IMG/VR virus record: IMGVR_UViG_3300029650_000085
Source: a virus
Lineage: Duplodnaviria; Heunggongvirae; Uroviricota; Caudoviricetes
Length of the DNA stretch: 4,948 nt
Reading direction: 5' to 3' (one strand)
Below, in pieces: positions 208 through 4,948 of the stretch (position 1 is the first letter of the stretch; every line of letters begins with the position of its first letter). Made by a program: the position numbers and the translations under genes. Below the pieces are notes generated by a model. The model saw only the letters and a program-made list of their open reading frames with translations. It searched no databases and had not been told where the DNA came from.

Positions 208-954
208 TTACTTCACAACCCTCATATTGCTGACATTTGGACGCCAGCTATCCCAGTTAAACGTCACCCATCGACCACCGTTCATGGTCATGCGGTCCAT
301 AATCCTCTCACCAAGAAGCGTACTCATTGCGGCATGATTCAGGTTTGTTAACATCCCGACACTGCACAGTGATGCTGTCCGGCGATCAATTATCTGGTGC
401 AATACCACCTGCTCGTTTTTCGTCTCCCGCTGAACGCCTATTTCATCCAGGACCAGCAAATCAACCCCGCAAAGCTCCTGTAAAAATTTTTCCCCGGATT
501 TGCCGTTGTCGTAGCTGTCATGCAACACGCTCATGACGTCAGACACGGTGACGATAATCACGCTGCGCCCCTTCACCATCAGCCGGTTGCCCATCGCCGC
601 TGCAAGGTGATTTTTCCCGGTGCCGGTTTTACCGCTGAACACAAAATTCGTGCACCCGGTCATCAGTTCGTCAGCTATGGATTTGGCCTGGCTCAGCGCG
701 TATTTTTGCCCGTCGTTCTGCACCTGATAATTTGCAAACGAGCATTTGCTGTGCAGAGGCTGGATGCCCGAACGATTCAGGATTTTTTCCACCCGCAACT
801 GGCGATTCTGGCGGTTAATCTCCTCGCTGCGTTTTCGTCCTTCAGCAAGTTGCCATTCCCGCCACTCCTCCACCGTCCGGTACGGTGGAACCGACCCCTG
901 TGGTGCAAGTCTGCGAATACGTTCAAGAACCCCAACTGCCGCAATGTTTTTCAT
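208..954 (-). CDS. ydaV: DnaC-like replicative helicase loader (AAA+ ATPase), prophage replication protein
   Basis: 248-aa ORF with ATG at 952-954 and TAA at 208-210. Walker A-like FSGKTGTGKNHLAAA and Walker B DLLVLDEIG match the DnaC/IstB family signature as I recall it. The start lies 6 nt downstream of the upstream initiator gene stop. Length equals that of K-12 Rac YdaV (from memory). Confidence 0.9.
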   Translation of the reverse strand: MKNIAAVGVLERIRRLAPQGSVPPYRTVEEWREWQLAEGRKRSEEINRQNRQLRVEKILNRSGIQPLHSKCSFANYQVQNDGQKYALSQAKSIADELMTGCTNFVFSGKTGTGKNHLAAAMGNRLMVKGRSVIIVTVSDVMSVLHDSYDNGKSGEKFLQELCGVDLLVLDEIGVQRETKNEQVVLHQIIDRRTASLCSVGMLTNLNHAAMSTLLGERIMDRMTMNGGRWVTFNWDSWRPNVSNMRVVK

Positions 955-960
955 GACACG

Positions 961-1893
961 TCACCCCCTGAATCCCGGCGGTATTTCAGTGTCCGGTTCA
1001 GAAATGTGATTCACGCAACGCTGCGCAGGCGAACGCCCCAGGCGGATAACCAGTTCATCCCATTTTTCCCGGAGTTTTGCCGGACTCATGATGTTTTTTA
1101 CCCAGAACGAATCCCGCTGGAGACGCCCAAACATTTCACAAATTTGTCTGTGAGTTCTGCCATCCAGCATCCGCATTGTGCGAACGTCATTGGCCCATGC
1201 TGTCCAGTTGGGTTCTTTCGGTCTAGTGATCTCGCCATCATAGCTGGCCGCCTGCTCGTAAAGACTCACGATTCGTCCCCAGATCCACTGTGCGCACACC
1301 AAATCTTCCTGACTTCCCCACTGGCGTTTTTTCGCACTGAACACAACCGCGTCAGGGTGTCGGGTTAAAAAATCCTGTTCAGCCGTCTGCGGGTCCGGTT
1401 GCGAAGCGTCCGGACAAGAAGATCTTTTATCTGACGGATCAGGTTTTAATACTGACGGATCGGGGTCAATCATCGCCCCCCTAATCGGCAGTTTTTTATC
1501 AACAGTTGATCCATCAAAATTTGACGGGTCAACCGTTGAGGGGTCATTTTTTGCCGGGCTAATTTTTCTTTTCGGTTTATATGACTCACGCGCCGCCGCC
1601 GCAGCTGCTTCGAGTTTTTCCACATTAAGCCGATAGATATTGCTTACATTACGCCCACCGACCTTACGCTCTTCCTTCGTCAGCCAGCCCTCTTTCGCCA
1701 GTTCTGCAATAGCCGATTTCACTGTGGATTCACTTCTTGCACCGATCTGACGCCGGATAGTTTCAATGGCAGGCCATGACACGCCCTCGTCATTGCTGTA
1801 GTCTGCAAGACGGGCCATAACCGCCACCCTGGATAAGATCATGCCGGTGAAGGCGCACCCTTCCCAGACAAGACCATGAAGCTTGCTGCTCAT
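961..1893 (-). CDS. ydaU: Phage replication initiator / replisome organizer (lambda O-like, N-terminal winged-helix domain)
   Basis: Long minus-strand ORF with stop TGA at 961-963. The track start at 1908 is GTG; the first ATG is 1891-1893, preceded by GGGGG. The N-terminus (LSRVAVMARLADYSNDEGVSWPAIETIRRQIG...ELAKEGWL) looks like a winged-helix DNA-binding domain. The central Asp/Pro-rich linker is encoded by iteron-like DNA repeats. Start is uncertain: alternatives at 1842 or 1818 would give 293 or 285 aa. Confidence 0.8.
   Translation of the reverse strand: MSSKLHGLVWEGCAFTGMILSRVAVMARLADYSNDEGVSWPAIETIRRQIGARSESTVKSAIAELAKEGWLTKEERKVGGRNVSNIYRLNVEKLEAAAAAARESYKPKRKISPAKNDPSTVDPSNFDGSTVDKKLPIRGAMIDPDPSVLKPDPSDKRSSCPDASQPDPQTAEQDFLTRHPDAVVFSAKKRQWGSQEDLVCAQWIWGRIVSLYEQAASYDGEITRPKEPNWTAWANDVRTMRMLDGRTHRQICEMFGRLQRDSFWVKNIMSPAKLREKWDELVIRLGRSPAQRCVNHISEPDTEIPPGFRG
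1425..1585. other. Candidate replication origin inside the initiator gene: iteron-like repeats followed by an A/T-rich tract
   Basis: TGACGG(A/G)TC occurs three times (1432-1440, 1453-1461, 1522-1530). Palindrome TCAAC-N-GTTGA occurs twice (1499-1509, 1529-1539). GGGTCA recurs at 1463-1468, 1525-1530 and 1541-1546, followed by a T-rich tract 1545-1580 (cattttttgccgggctaatttttcttttcggtttat). Lambda-type origins lie inside the O gene with this layout. Confidence 0.4.
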
Positions 1894-1915
1894 AAAACCC
1901 CCGAACACCGTGCTT

Positions 1916-2341
1916 TTAGTGCATCACCACAGCATTCCCTGCCGGGCCGCCGCGATTCATCTGGTCATACAAAACAACCGCTGACGCAACAAAATCATCG
2001 ACATCCTTCACCAGCCGATCCCTCCGTTCGACGATCTCACGGTAATATTCAGAACTGTGGCTGCGCATACGGGCCACCAGCAAAGGCGGCATCGCCTTTT
2101 CGATCGCCGGTAACAGAGCCTGCATTTTTTCAACAGCATCAGGGGTGTCTTTATCCAGCCAACGGAAAATTTTCTGGGTATTACGGGCCAGGGCTTCCGG
2201 ATGGCTGTCGTCGTACAGTTCAGGGAACGTCATCCCCAGTTCGAAATAAGTCCGGGCTATTTCAGCTGCAGGAACTTTCTCACCATCAGGGTATGCCCAG
2301 GCATTCATCGCCATGCGGATGTGCTCATGTTTGATTTTCAT
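1916..2341 (-). CDS. ydaT: YdaT-family protein (CII-like; toxic when derepressed)
   Basis: 141-aa ORF with ATG at 2339-2341 and TAA at 1916-1918. N-terminus MKIKHEHIRMAMNAWA and length match my recollection of Rac YdaT. It overlaps the 3' end of the upstream Cro-like gene by 17 nt. Confidence 0.85.
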   Translation of the reverse strand: MKIKHEHIRMAMNAWAYPDGEKVPAAEIARTYFELGMTFPELYDDSHPEALARNTQKIFRWLDKDTPDAVEKMQALLPAIEKAMPPLLVARMRSHSSEYYREIVERRDRLVKDVDDFVASAVVLYDQMNRGGPAGNAVVMH

Positions 2342-2648
2342 GAATCATTTGCCTCTTGATGCTTCGGGTATGATCGTTTTCGTCATTTGGTTGCTTCATC
2401 GACATATTCTGCGAATAACATGACGAGCGTCGTAAGTATGTCCAATCAACATCAGGACGAAGTTCTTCACACAGGACACCACCTTTTGTTGCTCGTTCAA
2501 TCGCAGGACATCTCTCAGCAGGTAACTGACGTACACCTTTGATCCATTGATTTACGCTTGGAGGAGATACACCTAAAAGCCTAGCCATTGCTGATTGCCC
2601 ACCGACAACAGCACAAGCTCGTTTGAATGAATAGTTATCTTTTTTCAT
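2325..2648 (-). CDS. ydaS: YdaS-family Cro-like HTH DNA-binding protein
   Basis: The track ORF 2325..2669 starts at GTG; the first ATG (2646-2648) has GGAG 8 nt upstream and gives 107 aa (MKKDNYSFKRACAVVGGQSAMARLLGVSPPSVNQWIKGVRQLPAERCPAIERA...). HTH-like segment. Divergent from the repressor gene. Confidence 0.8.
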   Translation of the reverse strand: MKKDNYSFKRACAVVGGQSAMARLLGVSPPSVNQWIKGVRQLPAERCPAIERATKGGVLCEELRPDVDWTYLRRSSCYSQNMSMKQPNDENDHTRSIKRQMIHENQT

Positions 2649-2675
2649 CGAATGAACTCCAAAAAACACGCAACA

Positions 2676-2705
2676 ATATTAGGCTTAGCCTAATGAAATT
2701 GTCAA
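2676..2705 (-). promoter_or_regulatory. Leftward sigma70-type promoter for the ydaS-ydaT-ydaU-ydaV operon
   Basis: On the minus strand: -35 TTGACA (plus 2700-2705), 18-nt spacer, -10 TAATAT (plus 2676-2681). Both hexamers overlap operator palindromes. Predicted by eye only. Confidence 0.55.
2678..2694. promoter_or_regulatory. Operator palindrome ATTAGGC-TTA-GCCTAAT (7-bp perfect arms), overlapping the -10 of the leftward promoter
   Basis: Perfect dyad symmetry read directly from the sequence. Sits in the divergent repressor/cro-like intergenic region. Confidence 0.55.
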
Positions 2706-2721
2706 TAGGCTATGCCTAATA
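2699..2721. repeat. Left arm of a 23-bp perfect inverted repeat (ttgtcaataggctatgcctaata) bracketing the repressor gene
   Basis: Exact reverse complement of 3342-3364. Contains a -35 TTGACA (minus strand) and an operator half-palindrome. Confidence 0.9.
2704..2720. promoter_or_regulatory. Operator-like imperfect palindrome aATAGGC-TAT-GCCTAAt, overlapping the -35 of the leftward promoter
   Basis: Shares the TAGGC-N3-GCCTA core with the site at 2678-2694, with a 26-bp centre-to-centre spacing. Confidence 0.5.
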
Positions 2722-2772
2722 CATCGAGAGTAGGGATTGCCTAACGCGATGCGCATAGGAGACTATTAAGCA

Positions 2773-3249
2773 ATGCTTAGTGGTAAAGACTTAGGCCGAG
2801 CGATAGAGCAGGCCATTAACAAAAAAATTGCATCAGGAGCCGTCAAATCAAAGGCGGAAATCGCACGTCATTTCAAAGTCCAACCACCATCAATCCATGA
2901 CTGGATTAAGAAAGGTTCGATAAGTAAAGACAAACTTCCAGAACTATGGCGTTTCTTTTCTGATGTGGTTGGTCCAGAGCATTGGGGGCTTAACGAATAC
3001 CCCATACCAACCCCATCCACTTCAGATACAAAAAGTGAACTTTTAGACATAAACAGCCTTTATCAAGCCGCCTCTGATGAAAAAAAAGCAATTGTGGCTT
3101 TCATCTTATCTGGAAATGCTACGGAGCCTAGTTGGGTTGATTATGACGTTCGCGCCTACATTGCCGCAATGGAAATGAAGGTAGCTAACTATCTGAAAAA
3201 TCAAGAATCAAAACGGAAAAGCCAGAACATCACCAAGACAGGAACTTAA
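2773..3249 (+). CDS. racR: RacR-type prophage repressor (HTH)
   Basis: 158-aa ORF with ATG at 2773-2775 and TAA at 3247-3249. HTH-like segment SKAEIARHFKVQPPSIHDWIKKGSIS. Length and N-terminus match my recollection of Rac RacR. AGGAG at 2757-2761 lies 11 nt upstream. Divergent from the cro-like gene. Confidence 0.85.
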   Translation: MLSGKDLGRAIEQAINKKIASGAVKSKAEIARHFKVQPPSIHDWIKKGSISKDKLPELWRFFSDVVGPEHWGLNEYPIPTPSTSDTKSELLDINSLYQAASDEKKAIVAFILSGNATEPSWVDYDVRAYIAAMEMKVANYLKNQESKRKSQNITKTGT

Positions 3250-3341
3250 ACTTATATGGTCCGACGGGAAATTCCTAGTTCCCGTTAGTTAACTCCTACT
3301 ACCTCTCCCACAAACCATCACCTATTAGGTTGCGCCCAAAT

Positions 3342-3364
3342 TATTAGGCATAGCCTATTGACAA
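3342..3364. repeat. Right arm of the 23-bp perfect inverted repeat (tattaggcatagcctattgacaa)
   Basis: Exact reverse complement of 2699-2721. Carries the -35 TTGACA of the rightward promoter. Confidence 0.9.
3345..3361. promoter_or_regulatory. Operator-like palindrome ATTAGGC-ATA-GCCTAtt, overlapping the -35 of the rightward promoter
   Basis: Mirror copy of the 2704-2720 site. Further half-sites ATTAGG at 3324-3329 and 3368-3373. Confidence 0.45.
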
Positions 3365-3386
3365 GTAATTAGGCATTTCCTATAGT
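3358..3386 (+). promoter_or_regulatory. Rightward early promoter (TTGACA-N17-TATAGT) driving the small ORFs, DicF and the dicB-position ORF
   Basis: -35 TTGACA at 3358-3363, 17-nt spacer, -10 TATAGT at 3381-3386. The operator-like site 3368-3384 overlaps the spacer and -10. Predicted by eye only. Confidence 0.6.
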
Positions 3387-3567
3387 TTTCCCATACCAAC
3401 CCATCCCGTCCCACACAATACAGGGCAATACCTCGAGTTACCAGGCAGTGGTCAGGGGTTAAGTAGCCAGCCCGAGGCGTAAGAACATGACGGCAGGGTT
3501 CAACTTTAATAACTATGCAGCAGGTTTTTGTTCCGCTACCCCGGCGTTAAGGGGAAATGAGGTCAGC

Positions 3568-3720
3568 ATGGATACTATCGAGCTTGGCAACAACGAATCT
3601 CTGGTATGCGGCGTGTTTCCCAACCAGGACGGCACGTTTACCGCGATGACATATACCAGAAGCAAAACGTTTAAAACTGAAGCTGGCGCGCGTCGCTGGT
3701 TAACCAGAAACACTGACTGA
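3568..3720 (+). CDS. Small hypothetical protein (~50 aa), YdaF/YdfA-like by position
   Basis: ATG at 3568-3570 with GAGG 5 nt upstream; stop TGA at 3718-3720 overlaps the next ATG (ATGA). The track ORF could instead start at 3487 (77 aa, weaker RBS). The shorter form is chosen on RBS spacing and on the ~51-aa length I recall for the homologous small proteins. Confidence 0.5.
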   Translation: MDTIELGNNESLVCGVFPNQDGTFTAMTYTRSKTFKTEAGARRWLTRNTD

Positions 3721-4052
3721 TGAGGTTGACGATGGAATTTAAAGATTTACCAGTACCATTCCAGGAAATGGCATCGAATGTGGTTCGCTCTCAACTGGCG
3801 ACTCTTGACCTGAGTACCGTAGAAAAAGAAACCATCGACAATATATCCGGTAACGTACGCCGAGCCTTTATCGGGCTGTACGAAGAGAAGCAGCTCTCTG
3901 ATAACCAGGATTTACATGAAAAATACTTCCTGGATCTAATGGACATCATTGATAAGGGGTTTGGCTTGTTAATGAAAAAGAAAGGGATTCGAATAGAACC
4001 CCTTGAAAATTACTTTGCAACAAAAAGCATTAATTCTTTTGATTCAAAATAA
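3720..4052 (+). CDS. Hypothetical protein (110 aa), translationally coupled to the upstream small ORF
   Basis: ATG at 3720-3722 overlaps the upstream stop; alternative ATG at 3732 with GAGG upstream. TAA at 4050-4052. AT-rich coding sequence. The 3' end overlaps the convergent 91-aa ORF by 23 nt. Confidence 0.55.
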   Translation: MRLTMEFKDLPVPFQEMASNVVRSQLATLDLSTVEKETIDNISGNVRRAFIGLYEEKQLSDNQDLHEKYFLDLMDIIDKGFGLLMKKKGIRIEPLENYFATKSINSFDSK

Positions 4053-4305
4053 GAGAATTAATTACAGACTTAACATGCTCTTTCTCATGATTGAAGCTCT
4101 CATGATTGAAAGTGCCGGGTTGAAGCGAGTCGATATAATCAACAAGACTCTGTCGTACGACTTCATTTTTATCCATAACAGATGCAAGAAATGAAATTGC
4201 TAAAAGAGTTATATCACTACGCGCCGCAGCATGTTGCAATGCTTTATCAAAATTATTAATCTGGCGTATCAGGGAGTTAATGATTTCATCATTTTCAGTC
4301 GACAT
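4030..4305 (-). CDS. Hypothetical small protein (91 aa), antisense to the rightward early operon
   Basis: ATG at 4303-4305 preceded by a consensus AGGAGG with 5-nt spacing; TAA at 4030-4032. One hydrophobic segment (ITLLAISFLASVM) and a tandem FNHES/FNHEKE repeat (DNA direct repeat ctcatgattgaa at 4083-4094 and 4099-4110). The track ORF extends to 4638 (TTG start) through a GC-rich Arg-rich frame that I consider non-coding. Confidence 0.5.
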   Translation of the reverse strand: MSTENDEIINSLIRQINNFDKALQHAAARSDITLLAISFLASVMDKNEVVRQSLVDYIDSLQPGTFNHESFNHEKEHVKSVINSLILNQKN

Positions 4306-4639: not shown

Positions 4640-4697
4640 TTTCTGGTGACGTTTGGCGGTATCAGTTTTACTCCGTGACTGCTCTGCCGCCCTTTTT
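4640..4697 (+). ncRNA. dicF: DicF-type small RNA (cell-division/ftsZ-targeting sRNA of the dicB operon)
   Basis: The sequence tttctggtgacgtttggcggtatcagttttactccgtgactgctctgccgccc (4640-4692, 53 nt) followed by TTTTT matches the DicF sequence as I remember it. It lies between upstream small ORFs and a downstream short ORF, as in the Qin dicB operon. Recalled, not searched. Confidence 0.75.
4655..4697 (+). terminator. Intrinsic terminator hairpin forming the DicF 3' end
   Basis: GGCGG (4655-4659) pairs with CCGCC (4687-4691), with internal CAGU/ACUG pairing, followed by a T5 tract at 4693-4697. Confidence 0.6.
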
Positions 4698-4866: not shown

Positions 4867-4948
4867 ATGAAAACGTTATTACCAAACGTTAAGGAAGGTG
4901 CGAATAAGCGGGGAAATTCTTCTCGGCTGACTCAGTCATTTCATTTCT
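4867..4948 (+). CDS. Short ORF in the dicB position, partial (N-terminal 27 codons; continues beyond the window end)
   Basis: ATG at 4867-4869 with GAGG 8 nt upstream (MKTLLPNVKEGANKRGNSSRLTQSFHF...). Lies about 170 nt downstream of DicF, as dicB does in Qin. Identity with DicB is not verified. Confidence 0.45.
   Translation, partial: MKTLLPNVKEGANKRGNSSRLTQSFHF

What the first reader, a model, noticed from the sequence alone, without database searches (positions are those of the whole stretch)
1916..2669. Cro-like/CII-like ydaS-ydaT pair divergent from the repressor: a conditional-lethal module held silent by RacR
In E. coli K-12 Rac, racR is reported to be essential because it represses ydaS/ydaT, whose expression is toxic (established knowledge, from memory). 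The same arrangement is present here, with both leftward promoter hexamers buried under operator palindromes and a 17-nt ydaS/ydaT overlap suggesting coupled translation. The proteins differ in length from what I recall for K-12 (107 versus about 98 aa for YdaS). That makes this a diverged copy in which the toxic determinant and its target could differ.
Basis: partly seen in the sequence, partly recalled or inferred. Interest (0 to 1): 0.45.

Follow-up and report, generated by a model that had tools for sequence, protein, structure and literature searches.

The report
Known Cro/CII-like prophage switch genes
These two genes are the well-studied Cro-like (YdaS) and CII-like (YdaT) regulators of a Rac-immunity lambdoid prophage in E. 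coli, kept off by the RacR repressor; this is a common, already annotated allele combination, so the finding is ordinary.

Summary
On the minus strand, ydaT (1916-2341, 141 aa) and ydaS (2325-2648, 107 aa) overlap by 17 nt. They lie divergent from racR (2773-3249), behind a promoter covered by RacR-type palindromes.

It is not a new diverged module. RacR (90%), YdaS (85%), the ydaS promoter hexamers and the 18-bp YdaT-box all match K-12 Rac. YdaT is the CP-933P allele: 31% identical to K-12 YdaT but about 96% to the crystallised protein 8BT1.

Published work shows this YdaT type has these properties:
- It is a tetrameric CII-like activator.
- It showed no toxicity when overexpressed.
- It does not activate the host rcsA promoter.
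- It does activate the Rac YdaT-box-dependent reverse promoter.

The 107 versus 98 aa difference has two causes: a 12-nt in-frame deletion and a TGA-to-CGA change at the K-12 stop. The frame then runs 13 more codons, to a TGA inside a conserved island at the ydaT start. That island is the mosaic joint between immunity modules and ydaT/replication modules.

About 470 of 5426 complete E. coli genomes carry this exact junction. The host prophage (about 49 kb, in ompW) looks intact, so loss of RacR would be lethal for more reasons than ydaST. Verdict: already known, low interest.

The parts
1916..2341 (-). ydaT: CII-like transcriptional activator (POU-type HTH, tetramer), CP-933P-type allele, 141 aa
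   Evidence: Pfam YdaT_toxin PF06254, 40.9 bits against a cut-off of 21. PHROG 163 'CII-like transcriptional activator', 2e-47. PDB 8BT1 at 3.3e-89 and 3C4R at 2.4e-79. 96% identical to the CP-933P-type YdaT of L004 and 32% to K-12 YdaT, with R60/W61 invariant.
2325..2648 (-). ydaS: Cro-like HTH regulator, Rac type, 107 aa, with a 13-codon read-through tail
   Evidence: Pfam YdaS_toxin, 103.9 bits, and P22_Cro, 35.3 bits against a cut-off of 30.2. PDB Cro proteins 3BD1 at 2.8e-10 and 5W8Y. 85% identical to K-12 YdaS. The tail is explained by a 12-nt deletion and by CGA at 2366-2364 where K-12 has TGA.
2331..2348 (-). YdaT-box, ATGATTCATGAAAATCAA; the ydaT start codon lies in its 6-nt spacer
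   Evidence: 18/18 identical to the DNase I-footprinted K-12 YdaT-box (PMC11879457). One mismatch to TTGATT-N6-AATCAA of CP-933P (PMC9986795). Located. Its core is invariant across 9 loci carrying several unrelated cro-like genes.
2526..2558 (+). Homologue of the reverse promoter PracR4 (PRE analogue) inside ydaS, pointing towards racR: CTGACG, 21 nt, TACGCT
   Evidence: K-12 PracR4 is TTGACG / TACGCT (PMC11879457). In the window the -10 is identical and the -35 has T to C at its first base. It lies about 180-195 bp from the YdaT-box, against about 190 bp in K-12. Activity was not tested.
2676..2705 (-). PydaST (PR analogue): TTGACA, 18 nt, TAATAT
   Evidence: Promoter scan, 10 of 12 matches. 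Hexamers and spacing identical to the mapped K-12 promoter.
2678..2781 (.). OR-like operator cluster: RacR palindromes at 2678-2694, 2704-2720, 2729-2745 and 2765-2781 (the last lies over the racR ATG)
   Evidence: They match the published RacR operator consensus (T/A)TAGGC-N3-GCCTA(T/A), including the published operator over the racR start codon (PMC9638921).
2773..3249 (+). racR: prophage repressor (CI analogue), 158 aa
   Evidence: NCBIfam equivalog NF049929, 244.6 bits against a cut-off of 200. 90% identical to K-12 RacR.
3324..3386 (+). OL/PL-like region: three RacR palindromes (3324-3340, 3343-3359, 3368-3384) over the promoter TTGACA, 17 nt, TATAGT (3358-3386), which reads towards the DUF1391 gene, DicF and dicB
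   Evidence: (11 of 12 matches). Conserved in K-12 Rac and in an O157 prophage.
961..1893 (-). Replication initiator, O-like, directly downstream of ydaT (context)
   Evidence: PHROG 391 'replication initiation O-like', 6e-116. Pfam HTH_36.
208..954 (-). DnaC/IstB-like helicase loader, YdaV-like (context)
   Evidence: NCBIfam PRK12377, 506 bits. Pfam IstB_IS21.

Best explanation
The region is the rightward early regulatory pair of a Rac-immunity lambdoid prophage.

In the lysogen, RacR (the CI analogue) binds the TAGGC-N3-GCCTA palindromes. These cover PydaST and a second PL-like promoter downstream of racR, so ydaS-ydaT-O-dnaC and the leftward early operon stay silent.

When RacR is lost or absent, as on infection, PydaST makes one ydaS-ydaT transcript. 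YdaS acts as the Cro-like HTH regulator at the intergenic operators. YdaT is a tetrameric POU/HTH protein. It binds the YdaT-box that spans its own start codon and activates the reverse promoter inside ydaS (PracR4, the PRE analogue). That drives racR expression and antagonises PydaST by convergent transcription.

The locus is a natural recombinant. It joins a Rac immunity module (racR, operators, ydaS) to a CP-933P-type ydaT plus O/DnaC replication module, at the conserved island made of the YdaT-box and the first codons of ydaT.

Growth arrest on derepression is a side effect of switching on phage regulators and early or lytic genes. It is not the job of a dedicated toxin.

Shown here by sequence: gene identities, promoter, operators, YdaT-box, the mosaic joint, and the origin of the 107-aa YdaS. 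Taken from experiments on near-identical parts in K-12 and CP-933P: repression by RacR, DNA binding and activation by YdaT, and lack of toxicity of this YdaT type. Inferred: that the parts work together the same way in this prophage.
For: Identities:
- RacR passes the equivalog model and is 90% identical to K-12.
- YdaS is 85% identical to K-12 and hits Cro families and Cro structures.
- YdaT is about 96% identical to the crystallised CP-933P protein 8BT1 and falls in PHROG 'CII-like transcriptional activator'.

Regulatory sites:
- The PydaST hexamers and spacing equal the mapped K-12 promoter.
- Palindromes give 8 matches against 1.15 expected, 7 of them in OR-like and OL-like clusters. The OL/PL-like cluster is conserved in K-12.
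- The YdaT-box is 18/18 identical to the footprinted K-12 box.
- The PracR4 -10 is identical; the -35 has one change.

Published experiments:
- CP-933P YdaT activates the Rac YdaT-box-dependent promoter as well as Rac YdaT does (PMC11879457).
- It is a DNA-binding tetramer (PMC9986795).
- It activates PRE933P and is not toxic (PMC8630535).

Context:
- Synteny runs cI-like / cro-like / cII-like / O / DnaC. The prophage is about 49 kb and has int, xis, Q, lysis, head and tail genes.
- The same ydaT type sits next to PaaR2-PaaA2-ParE2, LexA-type CI/Cro, DicC-like and other immunity modules. Similarity begins abruptly at the YdaT-box.
- Isolated phages carry these genes, annotated as cII and Rac repressor.
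Against: - Nothing was measured for this exact locus.
- The PracR4 -35 is CTGACG rather than TTGACG, and the box-to-promoter distance is 12 bp shorter than in K-12. YdaT-dependent activation of racR could therefore be weaker or phased differently.
- K-12 YdaT also binds the racR-ydaS intergenic region, whereas CP-933P YdaT does not bind its own intergenic region. That branch of the K-12 circuit may be absent here.
- In K-12, YdaS was reported not to repress racR, unlike lambda Cro (PMC9638921), so the Cro analogy is incomplete.
- Two groups still describe K-12 YdaS/YdaT as toxins.
Confidence: 0.9

Rival explanations
1. Toxin-repressor (addiction-like) module. YdaS and/or YdaT are dedicated toxins. 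The biological role of the locus is to kill or arrest cells that lose RacR, so the pair is a conditional-lethal cassette rather than a set of switch regulators.
For: In K-12, racR cannot be deleted unless ydaS-ydaT are removed, and ectopic ydaS or ydaS-T reduces growth and causes filamentation (PMC5700373 and PMC5700377; the 2026 preprint). Pfam and RefSeq still name the families 'toxin'. YdaS here is 85% identical to K-12 YdaS.
Against: - The YdaT type present here showed no toxicity (PMC8630535) and does not activate rcsA, the host promoter that K-12 YdaT activates.
- Its solved structure is a DNA-binding POU/HTH tetramer, not a toxin fold.
- Earlier tests found no toxin-antitoxin behaviour (cited in PMC5917428).
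- Lambda CII is also toxic when overexpressed, yet it is a regulator.
- The position between the repressor and O/DnaC in a complete prophage, and the recurrence in isolated phages, fit a Cro/CII role.
Confidence: 0.07
2. Inactive relic. The genes are decaying remnants of a cryptic prophage, and the extended YdaS is a damaged product of stop-codon loss with no function.
For: K-12 Rac and CP-933P are defective prophages. The YdaS tail arises from a point change at the stop codon and a 12-nt deletion. The prophage carries one IS remnant between the lysis and terminase genes.
Against: - All three regulator ORFs are intact, and the promoter, operators and YdaT-box are conserved to the base.
- About 470 complete E. 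coli genomes carry the identical junction allele.
- The same YdaS protein accession, WP_000711018.1, occurs in O157:H7 prophages.
- The host prophage keeps a full set of structural and lysis genes.
Confidence: 0.03

Closest known systems
racR-ydaS-ydaT immunity region of the cryptic prophage Rac, E. coli K-12 (b1356-b1358)
   Same: - RacR is 90% and YdaS 85% identical.
- The PydaST hexamers and spacing are identical, and the RacR palindromes have the same consensus.
- The 18-bp YdaT-box is identical.
- The OL/PL-like region is conserved.
- Gene order is the same: racR / ydaS-ydaT-O-like-DnaC-like.
   Different: - YdaT is only 31% identical; it is a different allele family.
- YdaS is 107 rather than 98 aa, through a 12-nt deletion and TGA to CGA. 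The genes overlap by 17 nt instead of lying 22 nt apart.
- The PracR4 -35 is CTGACG, not TTGACG.
- The O-like protein is a different type: YdaU is DUF1376 in K-12, HTH_36/PHROG 391 here.
- The prophage here is full length and sits in ompW, not the truncated 23-kb Rac.
- The leftward operon carries DicF and dicB instead of kilR.
ydaS-ydaT of cryptic prophage CP-933P / Sp12, E. coli O157:H7 (YdaT structure PDB 8BT1)
   Same: - YdaT is about 96% identical.
- The operator has the same position and nearly the same sequence, TTGATT-N6-AATCAA against ATGATT-N6-AATCAA, at the ydaS/ydaT junction.
- The role is CII-like: it activates a reverse promoter.
   Different: - The repressor there is PaaR2, followed by the PaaA2-ParE2 toxin-antitoxin pair. 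Its YdaS is unrelated (reported as 26% identical to K-12 YdaS) and its operators have the consensus GTTTAGTAA.
- Here the immunity module is RacR/YdaS with TAGGC-N3-GCCTA operators and no toxin-antitoxin pair.
- The cro-like gene there ends at the ATGA overlap (4 nt), not at +14.
Bacteriophage lambda cI-cro-cII (OR/PR/PRM, OL/PL, PRE)
   Same: - The layout matches: a divergent repressor and cro-like gene around a multi-operator region, and a second operator/promoter set beyond the repressor gene.
- A cII-like activator gene lies between cro and O. A reverse promoter in or near the cro/cII junction is activated by the cII-like tetramer.
   Different: - There is no detectable sequence similarity of RacR or YdaT to CI or CII (no Pfam hit for RacR; PMC9986795).
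- YdaT recognises an inverted repeat, not a direct repeat, and is a 222-symmetric tetramer.
- RacR is 158 aa with no Pfam domain hit, so there is no LexA-type peptidase domain. By inference, RecA-mediated self-cleavage is unlikely.
- racR has a Shine-Dalgarno (AGGAG) rather than being leaderless.

Membership tests
YdaT family (Pfam PF06254; CII-like activators, PHROG 163) | Sequence match above the curated threshold | tested here: met
   PF06254, 40.9 bits against a cut-off of 21. PHROG 163, 2e-47. 8BT1, 3.3e-89.
YdaT family (Pfam PF06254; CII-like activators, PHROG 163) | Conserved recognition-helix Arg (Arg60 in CP-933P numbering) followed by Trp | tested here: met
   R60, W61 and L62 are invariant in the alignment of five YdaT proteins, including K-12. 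Their importance comes from PMC9986795 and PMC11879457.
YdaT family (Pfam PF06254; CII-like activators, PHROG 163) | Cognate inverted repeat (T/A)TGATT-N6-AATCAA at the ydaS/ydaT junction | tested here: met
   ATGATTCATGAAAATCAA lies at 2348-2331 and is identical to the footprinted K-12 box.
YdaT family (Pfam PF06254; CII-like activators, PHROG 163) | Tetramerisation and activation of the reverse promoter | not testable with these tools
   Inferred from about 96% identity to the protein for which both were shown.
YdaS / Cro-like HTH regulators (Pfam PF15943, PF14549) | Sequence match above the curated thresholds, and similarity to solved Cro proteins | tested here: met
   PF15943, 103.9 bits against 30. 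P22_Cro, 35.3 bits against 30.2. Cro structure 3BD1, 2.8e-10.
YdaS / Cro-like HTH regulators (Pfam PF15943, PF14549) | First gene of the rightward operon, divergent from the repressor across the operators | tested here: met
RacR repressor (NCBIfam NF049929 equivalog) | Score above the equivalog cut-off | tested here: met
   244.6 bits against 200. 90% identical to b1356.
RacR repressor (NCBIfam NF049929 equivalog) | Operators (T/A)TAGGC-N3-GCCTA(T/A) over the ydaS promoter and the racR start | tested here: met
   Sites at 2680-2692, 2706-2718, 2731-2743 and 2767-2779, among 8 window-wide matches (1.15 expected by chance). Consensus from PMC9638921.
Lambdoid prophage immunity region (CI/Cro/CII-type switch) | Two operator clusters (OR-like and OL-like), each over a strong outward promoter flanking the repressor gene | tested here: met
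Lambdoid prophage immunity region (CI/Cro/CII-type switch) | Embedded in a prophage with integrase, replication, Q, lysis and virion genes | tested here: met
   NZ_CP030768.1, from int to the ompW fragment, about 49 kb.
Type II toxin-antitoxin pair (the original YdaS/YdaT prediction) | A toxin with a toxin fold or activity, neutralised by direct binding of the partner protein | tested here: not met
   YdaT is about 96% identical to a solved DNA-binding POU/HTH tetramer. No match to toxin families other than the historical family names. Published tests were negative. Protein-protein neutralisation itself cannot be tested here.

The most novel reading that the evidence does not exclude
This natural Rac / CP-933P hybrid may behave differently from both parents. 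Three differences could retune how much CII-like activator is made and how strongly it feeds back on racR:
- YdaS translation now runs across the ydaT ribosome-binding site, start codon and YdaT-box, because of the TGA-to-CGA read-through and the resulting 17-nt overlap.
- The reverse promoter has a weaker -35.
- The distance from the box to that promoter is 12 bp shorter.

The island of about 30-36 bp (YdaT-box plus the codons for MKIKHEHI) closes all three reading frames with TGA. It may act as a dedicated recombination joint that lets any immunity module be swapped onto any ydaT/replication module.
Probability: 0.15. Interest if true: 0.3.

Novelty: already known. Interest (0 to 1): 0.1.

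Why it matters
It matters little beyond correct annotation.

- The 'toxin YdaT family protein' label in RefSeq misleads for this allele. Experiments on a protein about 96% identical show a non-toxic CII-like activator.
- The 107-aa YdaS is a common read-through allele, not a new protein.
- The locus illustrates how lambdoid immunity modules are exchanged at a short conserved functional site. It is also a natural counterpart of the published cross-activation experiment, in which CP-933P YdaT acts on the Rac YdaT-box.

Tried and rejected
1. Additional YdaT-box-like sites in the racR-ydaS intergenic region, where K-12 YdaT footprints: none with up to 3 mismatches. The only good site is 2331-2348, and total matches are at chance level (6 against 3.9 expected).
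2. Intrinsic terminators or an oop-like antisense element around ydaT and O: no terminator-like site in 1850-3500. The ydaT-to-O gap is only 22 nt.
3. Two 46-nt queries meant to count the CGA and TGA junction alleles separately. They share a 29-nt exact word, so both retrieved the same roughly 1086 genomes. I used the >=99% identity bands instead (473 and 584 genomes). These are approximate allele counts.
4. NCBIfam has no model that names YdaT, and only a sub-threshold domain hit for YdaS.
5. Rfam found nothing in the finding's coordinates; the only hit is DicF elsewhere.
6. The plus-strand ORF 1876-2334 (152 aa), antisense to ydaT, was judged spurious. It is unannotated in RefSeq, and the opposite frame carries a strongly supported gene.
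7. The large protein-database searches, structure prediction and fold searches were not used. A 96%-identical crystal structure and direct experimental literature made them unnecessary.

Full report
**Where the window comes from**

Positions 1916-2772 are 100% identical to the chromosome of E. coli 2017C-4173W12 (NZ_CP030768.1). They are about 97% identical to a prophage next to potC in O157:H7 strains. In the source genome the window lies inside a prophage of about 49 kb inserted in ompW. That prophage has integrase, excisionase, exonuclease, dicB, the immunity region, O-like and DnaC-like replication genes, RusA, Q, tRNAs, holin, lysozyme and Rz, terminase, portal, capsid, tail and tail-fibre genes. 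It also has one IS remnant. It therefore looks like a largely intact lambdoid prophage, unlike the truncated 23-kb Rac of K-12.

**Checking the observation**

The two minus-strand ORFs exist as described:
- ydaT: 1916-2341, 141 aa.
- ydaS: 2325-2648, 107 aa from the ATG.
- They overlap by 17 nt, at 2325-2341.

The finding's right end, 2669, is an in-frame GTG that would give 114 aa. The ATG at 2648 has GGAG 8 nt upstream and is the RefSeq start. By inference, the GTG lies about where the transcript begins.

The repressor gene at 2773-3249 passes NCBI's RacR equivalog model, with 244.6 bits against a cut-off of 200.

The leftward promoter is TTGACA (2705-2700), 18 nt, TAATAT (2681-2676). These are exactly the hexamers and spacing of the experimentally mapped K-12 PydaST (PMC11879457).

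RacR-type palindromes (TAGGC-N3-GCCTA, up to 2 mismatches) give 8 matches in the window against 1.15 expected, and none of 200 shuffles reaches 8. Seven of them fall in two clusters:
- One lies between ydaS and racR: 2678-2694, 2704-2720, 2729-2745 and 2765-2781. The last sits over the racR ATG, as published for K-12 (PMC9638921).
- The other lies just downstream of racR: 3324-3340, 3343-3359 and 3368-3384. It overlies a near-consensus rightward promoter, TTGACA, 17 nt, TATAGT, at 3358-3386.

The second cluster is conserved in K-12 Rac. It is the OL/PL analogue. The one caveat is that the -35 of PydaST abuts its palindrome rather than lying under it.

**What the proteins are**

YdaS:
- It matches Pfam YdaS_toxin (103.9 bits) and P22_Cro (35.3 bits against a cut-off of 30.2).
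- It matches solved Cro proteins, with 3BD1 at 2.8e-10.
- It is 85% identical to K-12 YdaS.

RacR is 90% identical to K-12 RacR.

YdaT is a different matter:
- It is only 31% identical to K-12 YdaT.
- It is about 96% identical to the crystallised YdaT of prophage CP-933P (PDB 8BT1, 3.3e-89) and to the CP-933P-type YdaT in locus L004.
- PHROGs files it as 'CII-like transcriptional activator', 2e-47.
- The recognition-helix Arg60-Trp61 pair is invariant.

Megablast shows the same split. K-12 Rac matches only window 2318-2772, at 87%. CP-933P-type loci match only 1916 to about 2349.

**The mosaic joint and the 107-aa YdaS**

I aligned the ydaS/ydaT junction from nine loci:
- this window;
- an O157 potC prophage;
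- K-12 Rac;
- phage vB_EcoS-683R6;
- a CP-933P-type locus with PaaR2-PaaA2-ParE2;
- a locus with LexA-type CI and Cro;
- a locus with an HTH repressor and a YdaS-family protein;
- phage 640R1 (cI/DicC-like);
- phage Tritos (CI/Cro).

Upstream sequences are unrelated between immunity types. Similarity begins abruptly at GATTCATGAAAATCA. This island is the YdaT-box plus the first ydaT codons, which encode MKIKHEHI. Downstream of the island, sequences split into the K-12 and CP-933P ydaT types. The island is therefore the junction at which immunity modules are exchanged against ydaT/replication modules.

In the window the box at 2348-2331 reads ATGATTCATGAAAATCAA. That is 18/18 identical to the DNase I-footprinted K-12 YdaT-box, and the ydaT ATG lies in its spacer.

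Relative to K-12 there is a 12-nt in-frame deletion, and the K-12 stop TGA is CGA here (2366-2364). The frame continues for 13 codons (RSIKRQMIHENQT) through the box, to a TGA 14 nt inside ydaT. That gives 98 - 4 + 13 = 107.

In most of the nine loci the island closes all three reading frames with TGA, at -6, +1 and +14 relative to the ydaT ATG. The same 17-nt overlap recurs with unrelated cro-like genes in L007 and L008. The CP-933P, LexA-CI/Cro and Tritos types end at the ATGA overlap.

ydaT keeps the same Shine-Dalgarno sequence (AAGAGG) as in K-12, where the genes are 22 nt apart. The overlap is therefore a by-product of the joint, not specific evidence for translational coupling.

The allele is common. 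About 473 of 5426 complete E. coli genomes carry the identical 46-nt junction, and about 584 carry the K-12 version (approximate, taken from identity bands). In 529 genomes one place covers at least 80% of 1916-2772.

**How it most likely works**

All the pieces have been studied experimentally in K-12 Rac and in CP-933P.
- RacR binds the intergenic operators and silences PydaST. Without RacR, ydaS-ydaT are expressed and K-12 cells filament and die (PMC5700373 and PMC5700377).
- YdaS and YdaT are the Cro and CII analogues (PMC5917428; PMC8630535).
- YdaT is a tetramer with POU-type HTH domains. It recognises TTGATT-N6-AATCAA at the ydaS/ydaT junction (PMC9986795).
- In Rac it activates a reverse promoter inside ydaS, PracR4 (TTGACG / TACGCT), about 190 bp away, and so raises racR expression up to 29-fold (PMC11879457).
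- The window has the PracR4 homologue at 2526-2558. Its -10 is identical and its -35 is CTGACG.
- Wons et al. showed that CP-933P YdaT activates the Rac YdaT-box-dependent promoter as well as Rac YdaT does. This window is the natural version of that cross-combination.

**The 'conditional-lethal' reading**

For the YdaT type present here, this has already been tested:
- No toxicity was detected on overexpression (PMC8630535).
- It cannot activate rcsA, the host promoter that K-12 YdaT activates, with strong effects on the RcsA/B regulon (PMC11879457).

Strong YdaS overexpression may still slow growth, as reported for Rac YdaS and for CP-933P YdaS.

RacR here also sits over a PL-like promoter. 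That promoter reads into a DUF1391 gene, the DicF sRNA (4641-4692, Rfam 76.7 bits) and dicB, which starts at 4867. The prophage also has a full lytic gene set. Loss of RacR would very probably be lethal here, but not specifically because of ydaS-ydaT.

**Comparison with known systems, and verdict**

The locus meets every testable defining feature of four groups: the RacR equivalog, the YdaS/Cro-like family, the YdaT/CII-like family, and the lambdoid immunity layout. It fails the toxin-fold criterion of a type II toxin-antitoxin pair.

It differs from K-12 Rac mainly in its ydaT and O alleles, the read-through YdaS tail, and its prophage context. It differs from CP-933P in its immunity module: RacR/YdaS with TAGGC-N3-GCCTA operators, instead of PaaR2-PaaA2-ParE2 with GTTTAGTAA repeats.

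Nothing here lies outside what is published and annotated. The finding is real but ordinary.

Some questions remain open. How do the weaker PracR4 -35, the 12-bp shorter spacing and the overlap tune the switch? Does this YdaT bind the Rac intergenic region? These are small, parameter-level questions.

Noticed in passing
window 4641-4692 (+); dicB start at 4867: The DicF antisense sRNA (Rfam RF00039, 76.7 bits against a gathering score of 48) lies just upstream of the cell-division inhibitor gene dicB, which runs off the window end. Both are downstream of the RacR-controlled PL-like promoter, so they are further candidate lethal functions on derepression.
   Followed up: yes
window 3324-3386 (+): A second cluster of three RacR-type palindromes overlies a near-consensus promoter, TTGACA, 17 nt, TATAGT (11 of 12 matches), immediately downstream of racR. 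It is an OL/PL analogue and is conserved in K-12 Rac and in an O157 prophage.
   Followed up: yes
window 2699-2721 and 3342-3364: A 23-nt stretch (operator plus TTGACA -35) occurs as a perfect inverted duplicate at the OR-like and OL-like regions. The two outward promoters therefore share an identical -35/operator unit.
   Followed up: partly
window 2318-2348; loci L002-L005 and L007-L010 at the ydaT start: The conserved island at the ydaT start contains TGA in all three frames in most loci (-6, +1 and +14 relative to the ATG). Cro-like genes of unrelated sequence end at one of these stops: a 17-nt overlap in this window, L003, L007 and L008, and a 4-nt overlap in L004, L005 and L009. K-12 and phage 683R6 end earlier, at -25, leaving a 22-nt gap.
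   Followed up: yes
window 1431-1563, inside the O-like gene 961-1893 (-): Iteron-like direct repeats lie in the middle of the replication-initiator gene: CTGACGGATC(A/G)GG twice, 21 nt apart, and GGGGTCA-containing repeats 78 nt apart, with related TTGACGGGTCAA and TTGAGGGGTCA motifs. This is probably the phage origin.
   Followed up: partly
window 4030-4305 (-) and 3732-4052 (+): Two annotated hypothetical genes converge and overlap by 23 nt. The 91-aa minus-strand product matches nothing in Pfam, NCBIfam or PHROGs. The 106-aa plus-strand product matches only PHROGs of unknown function (phrog_6937).
   Followed up: no
window 3487-3720 (+): The mechanical ORF is 77 aa, but RefSeq annotates only the last 50 aa (3568-3720) as the DUF1391 (YdaF-like) protein. 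The Pfam match covers residues 29-75 of the long form. The true start is unresolved.
   Followed up: no
L006 29490-30319 (far end of the same prophage, next to the ompW fragment): A Rha-family regulator gene and an ash-family gene sit at the prophage end. RacR has no recognisable LexA-type cleavage domain, so a Rha-type antirepressor could be the induction route. This is speculative.
   Followed up: no
window 3001-3013 and 3390-3402: An exact 13-nt direct repeat, CCCATACCAACCC, occurs once inside racR and once just after the PL-like promoter. It may be chance.
   Followed up: no
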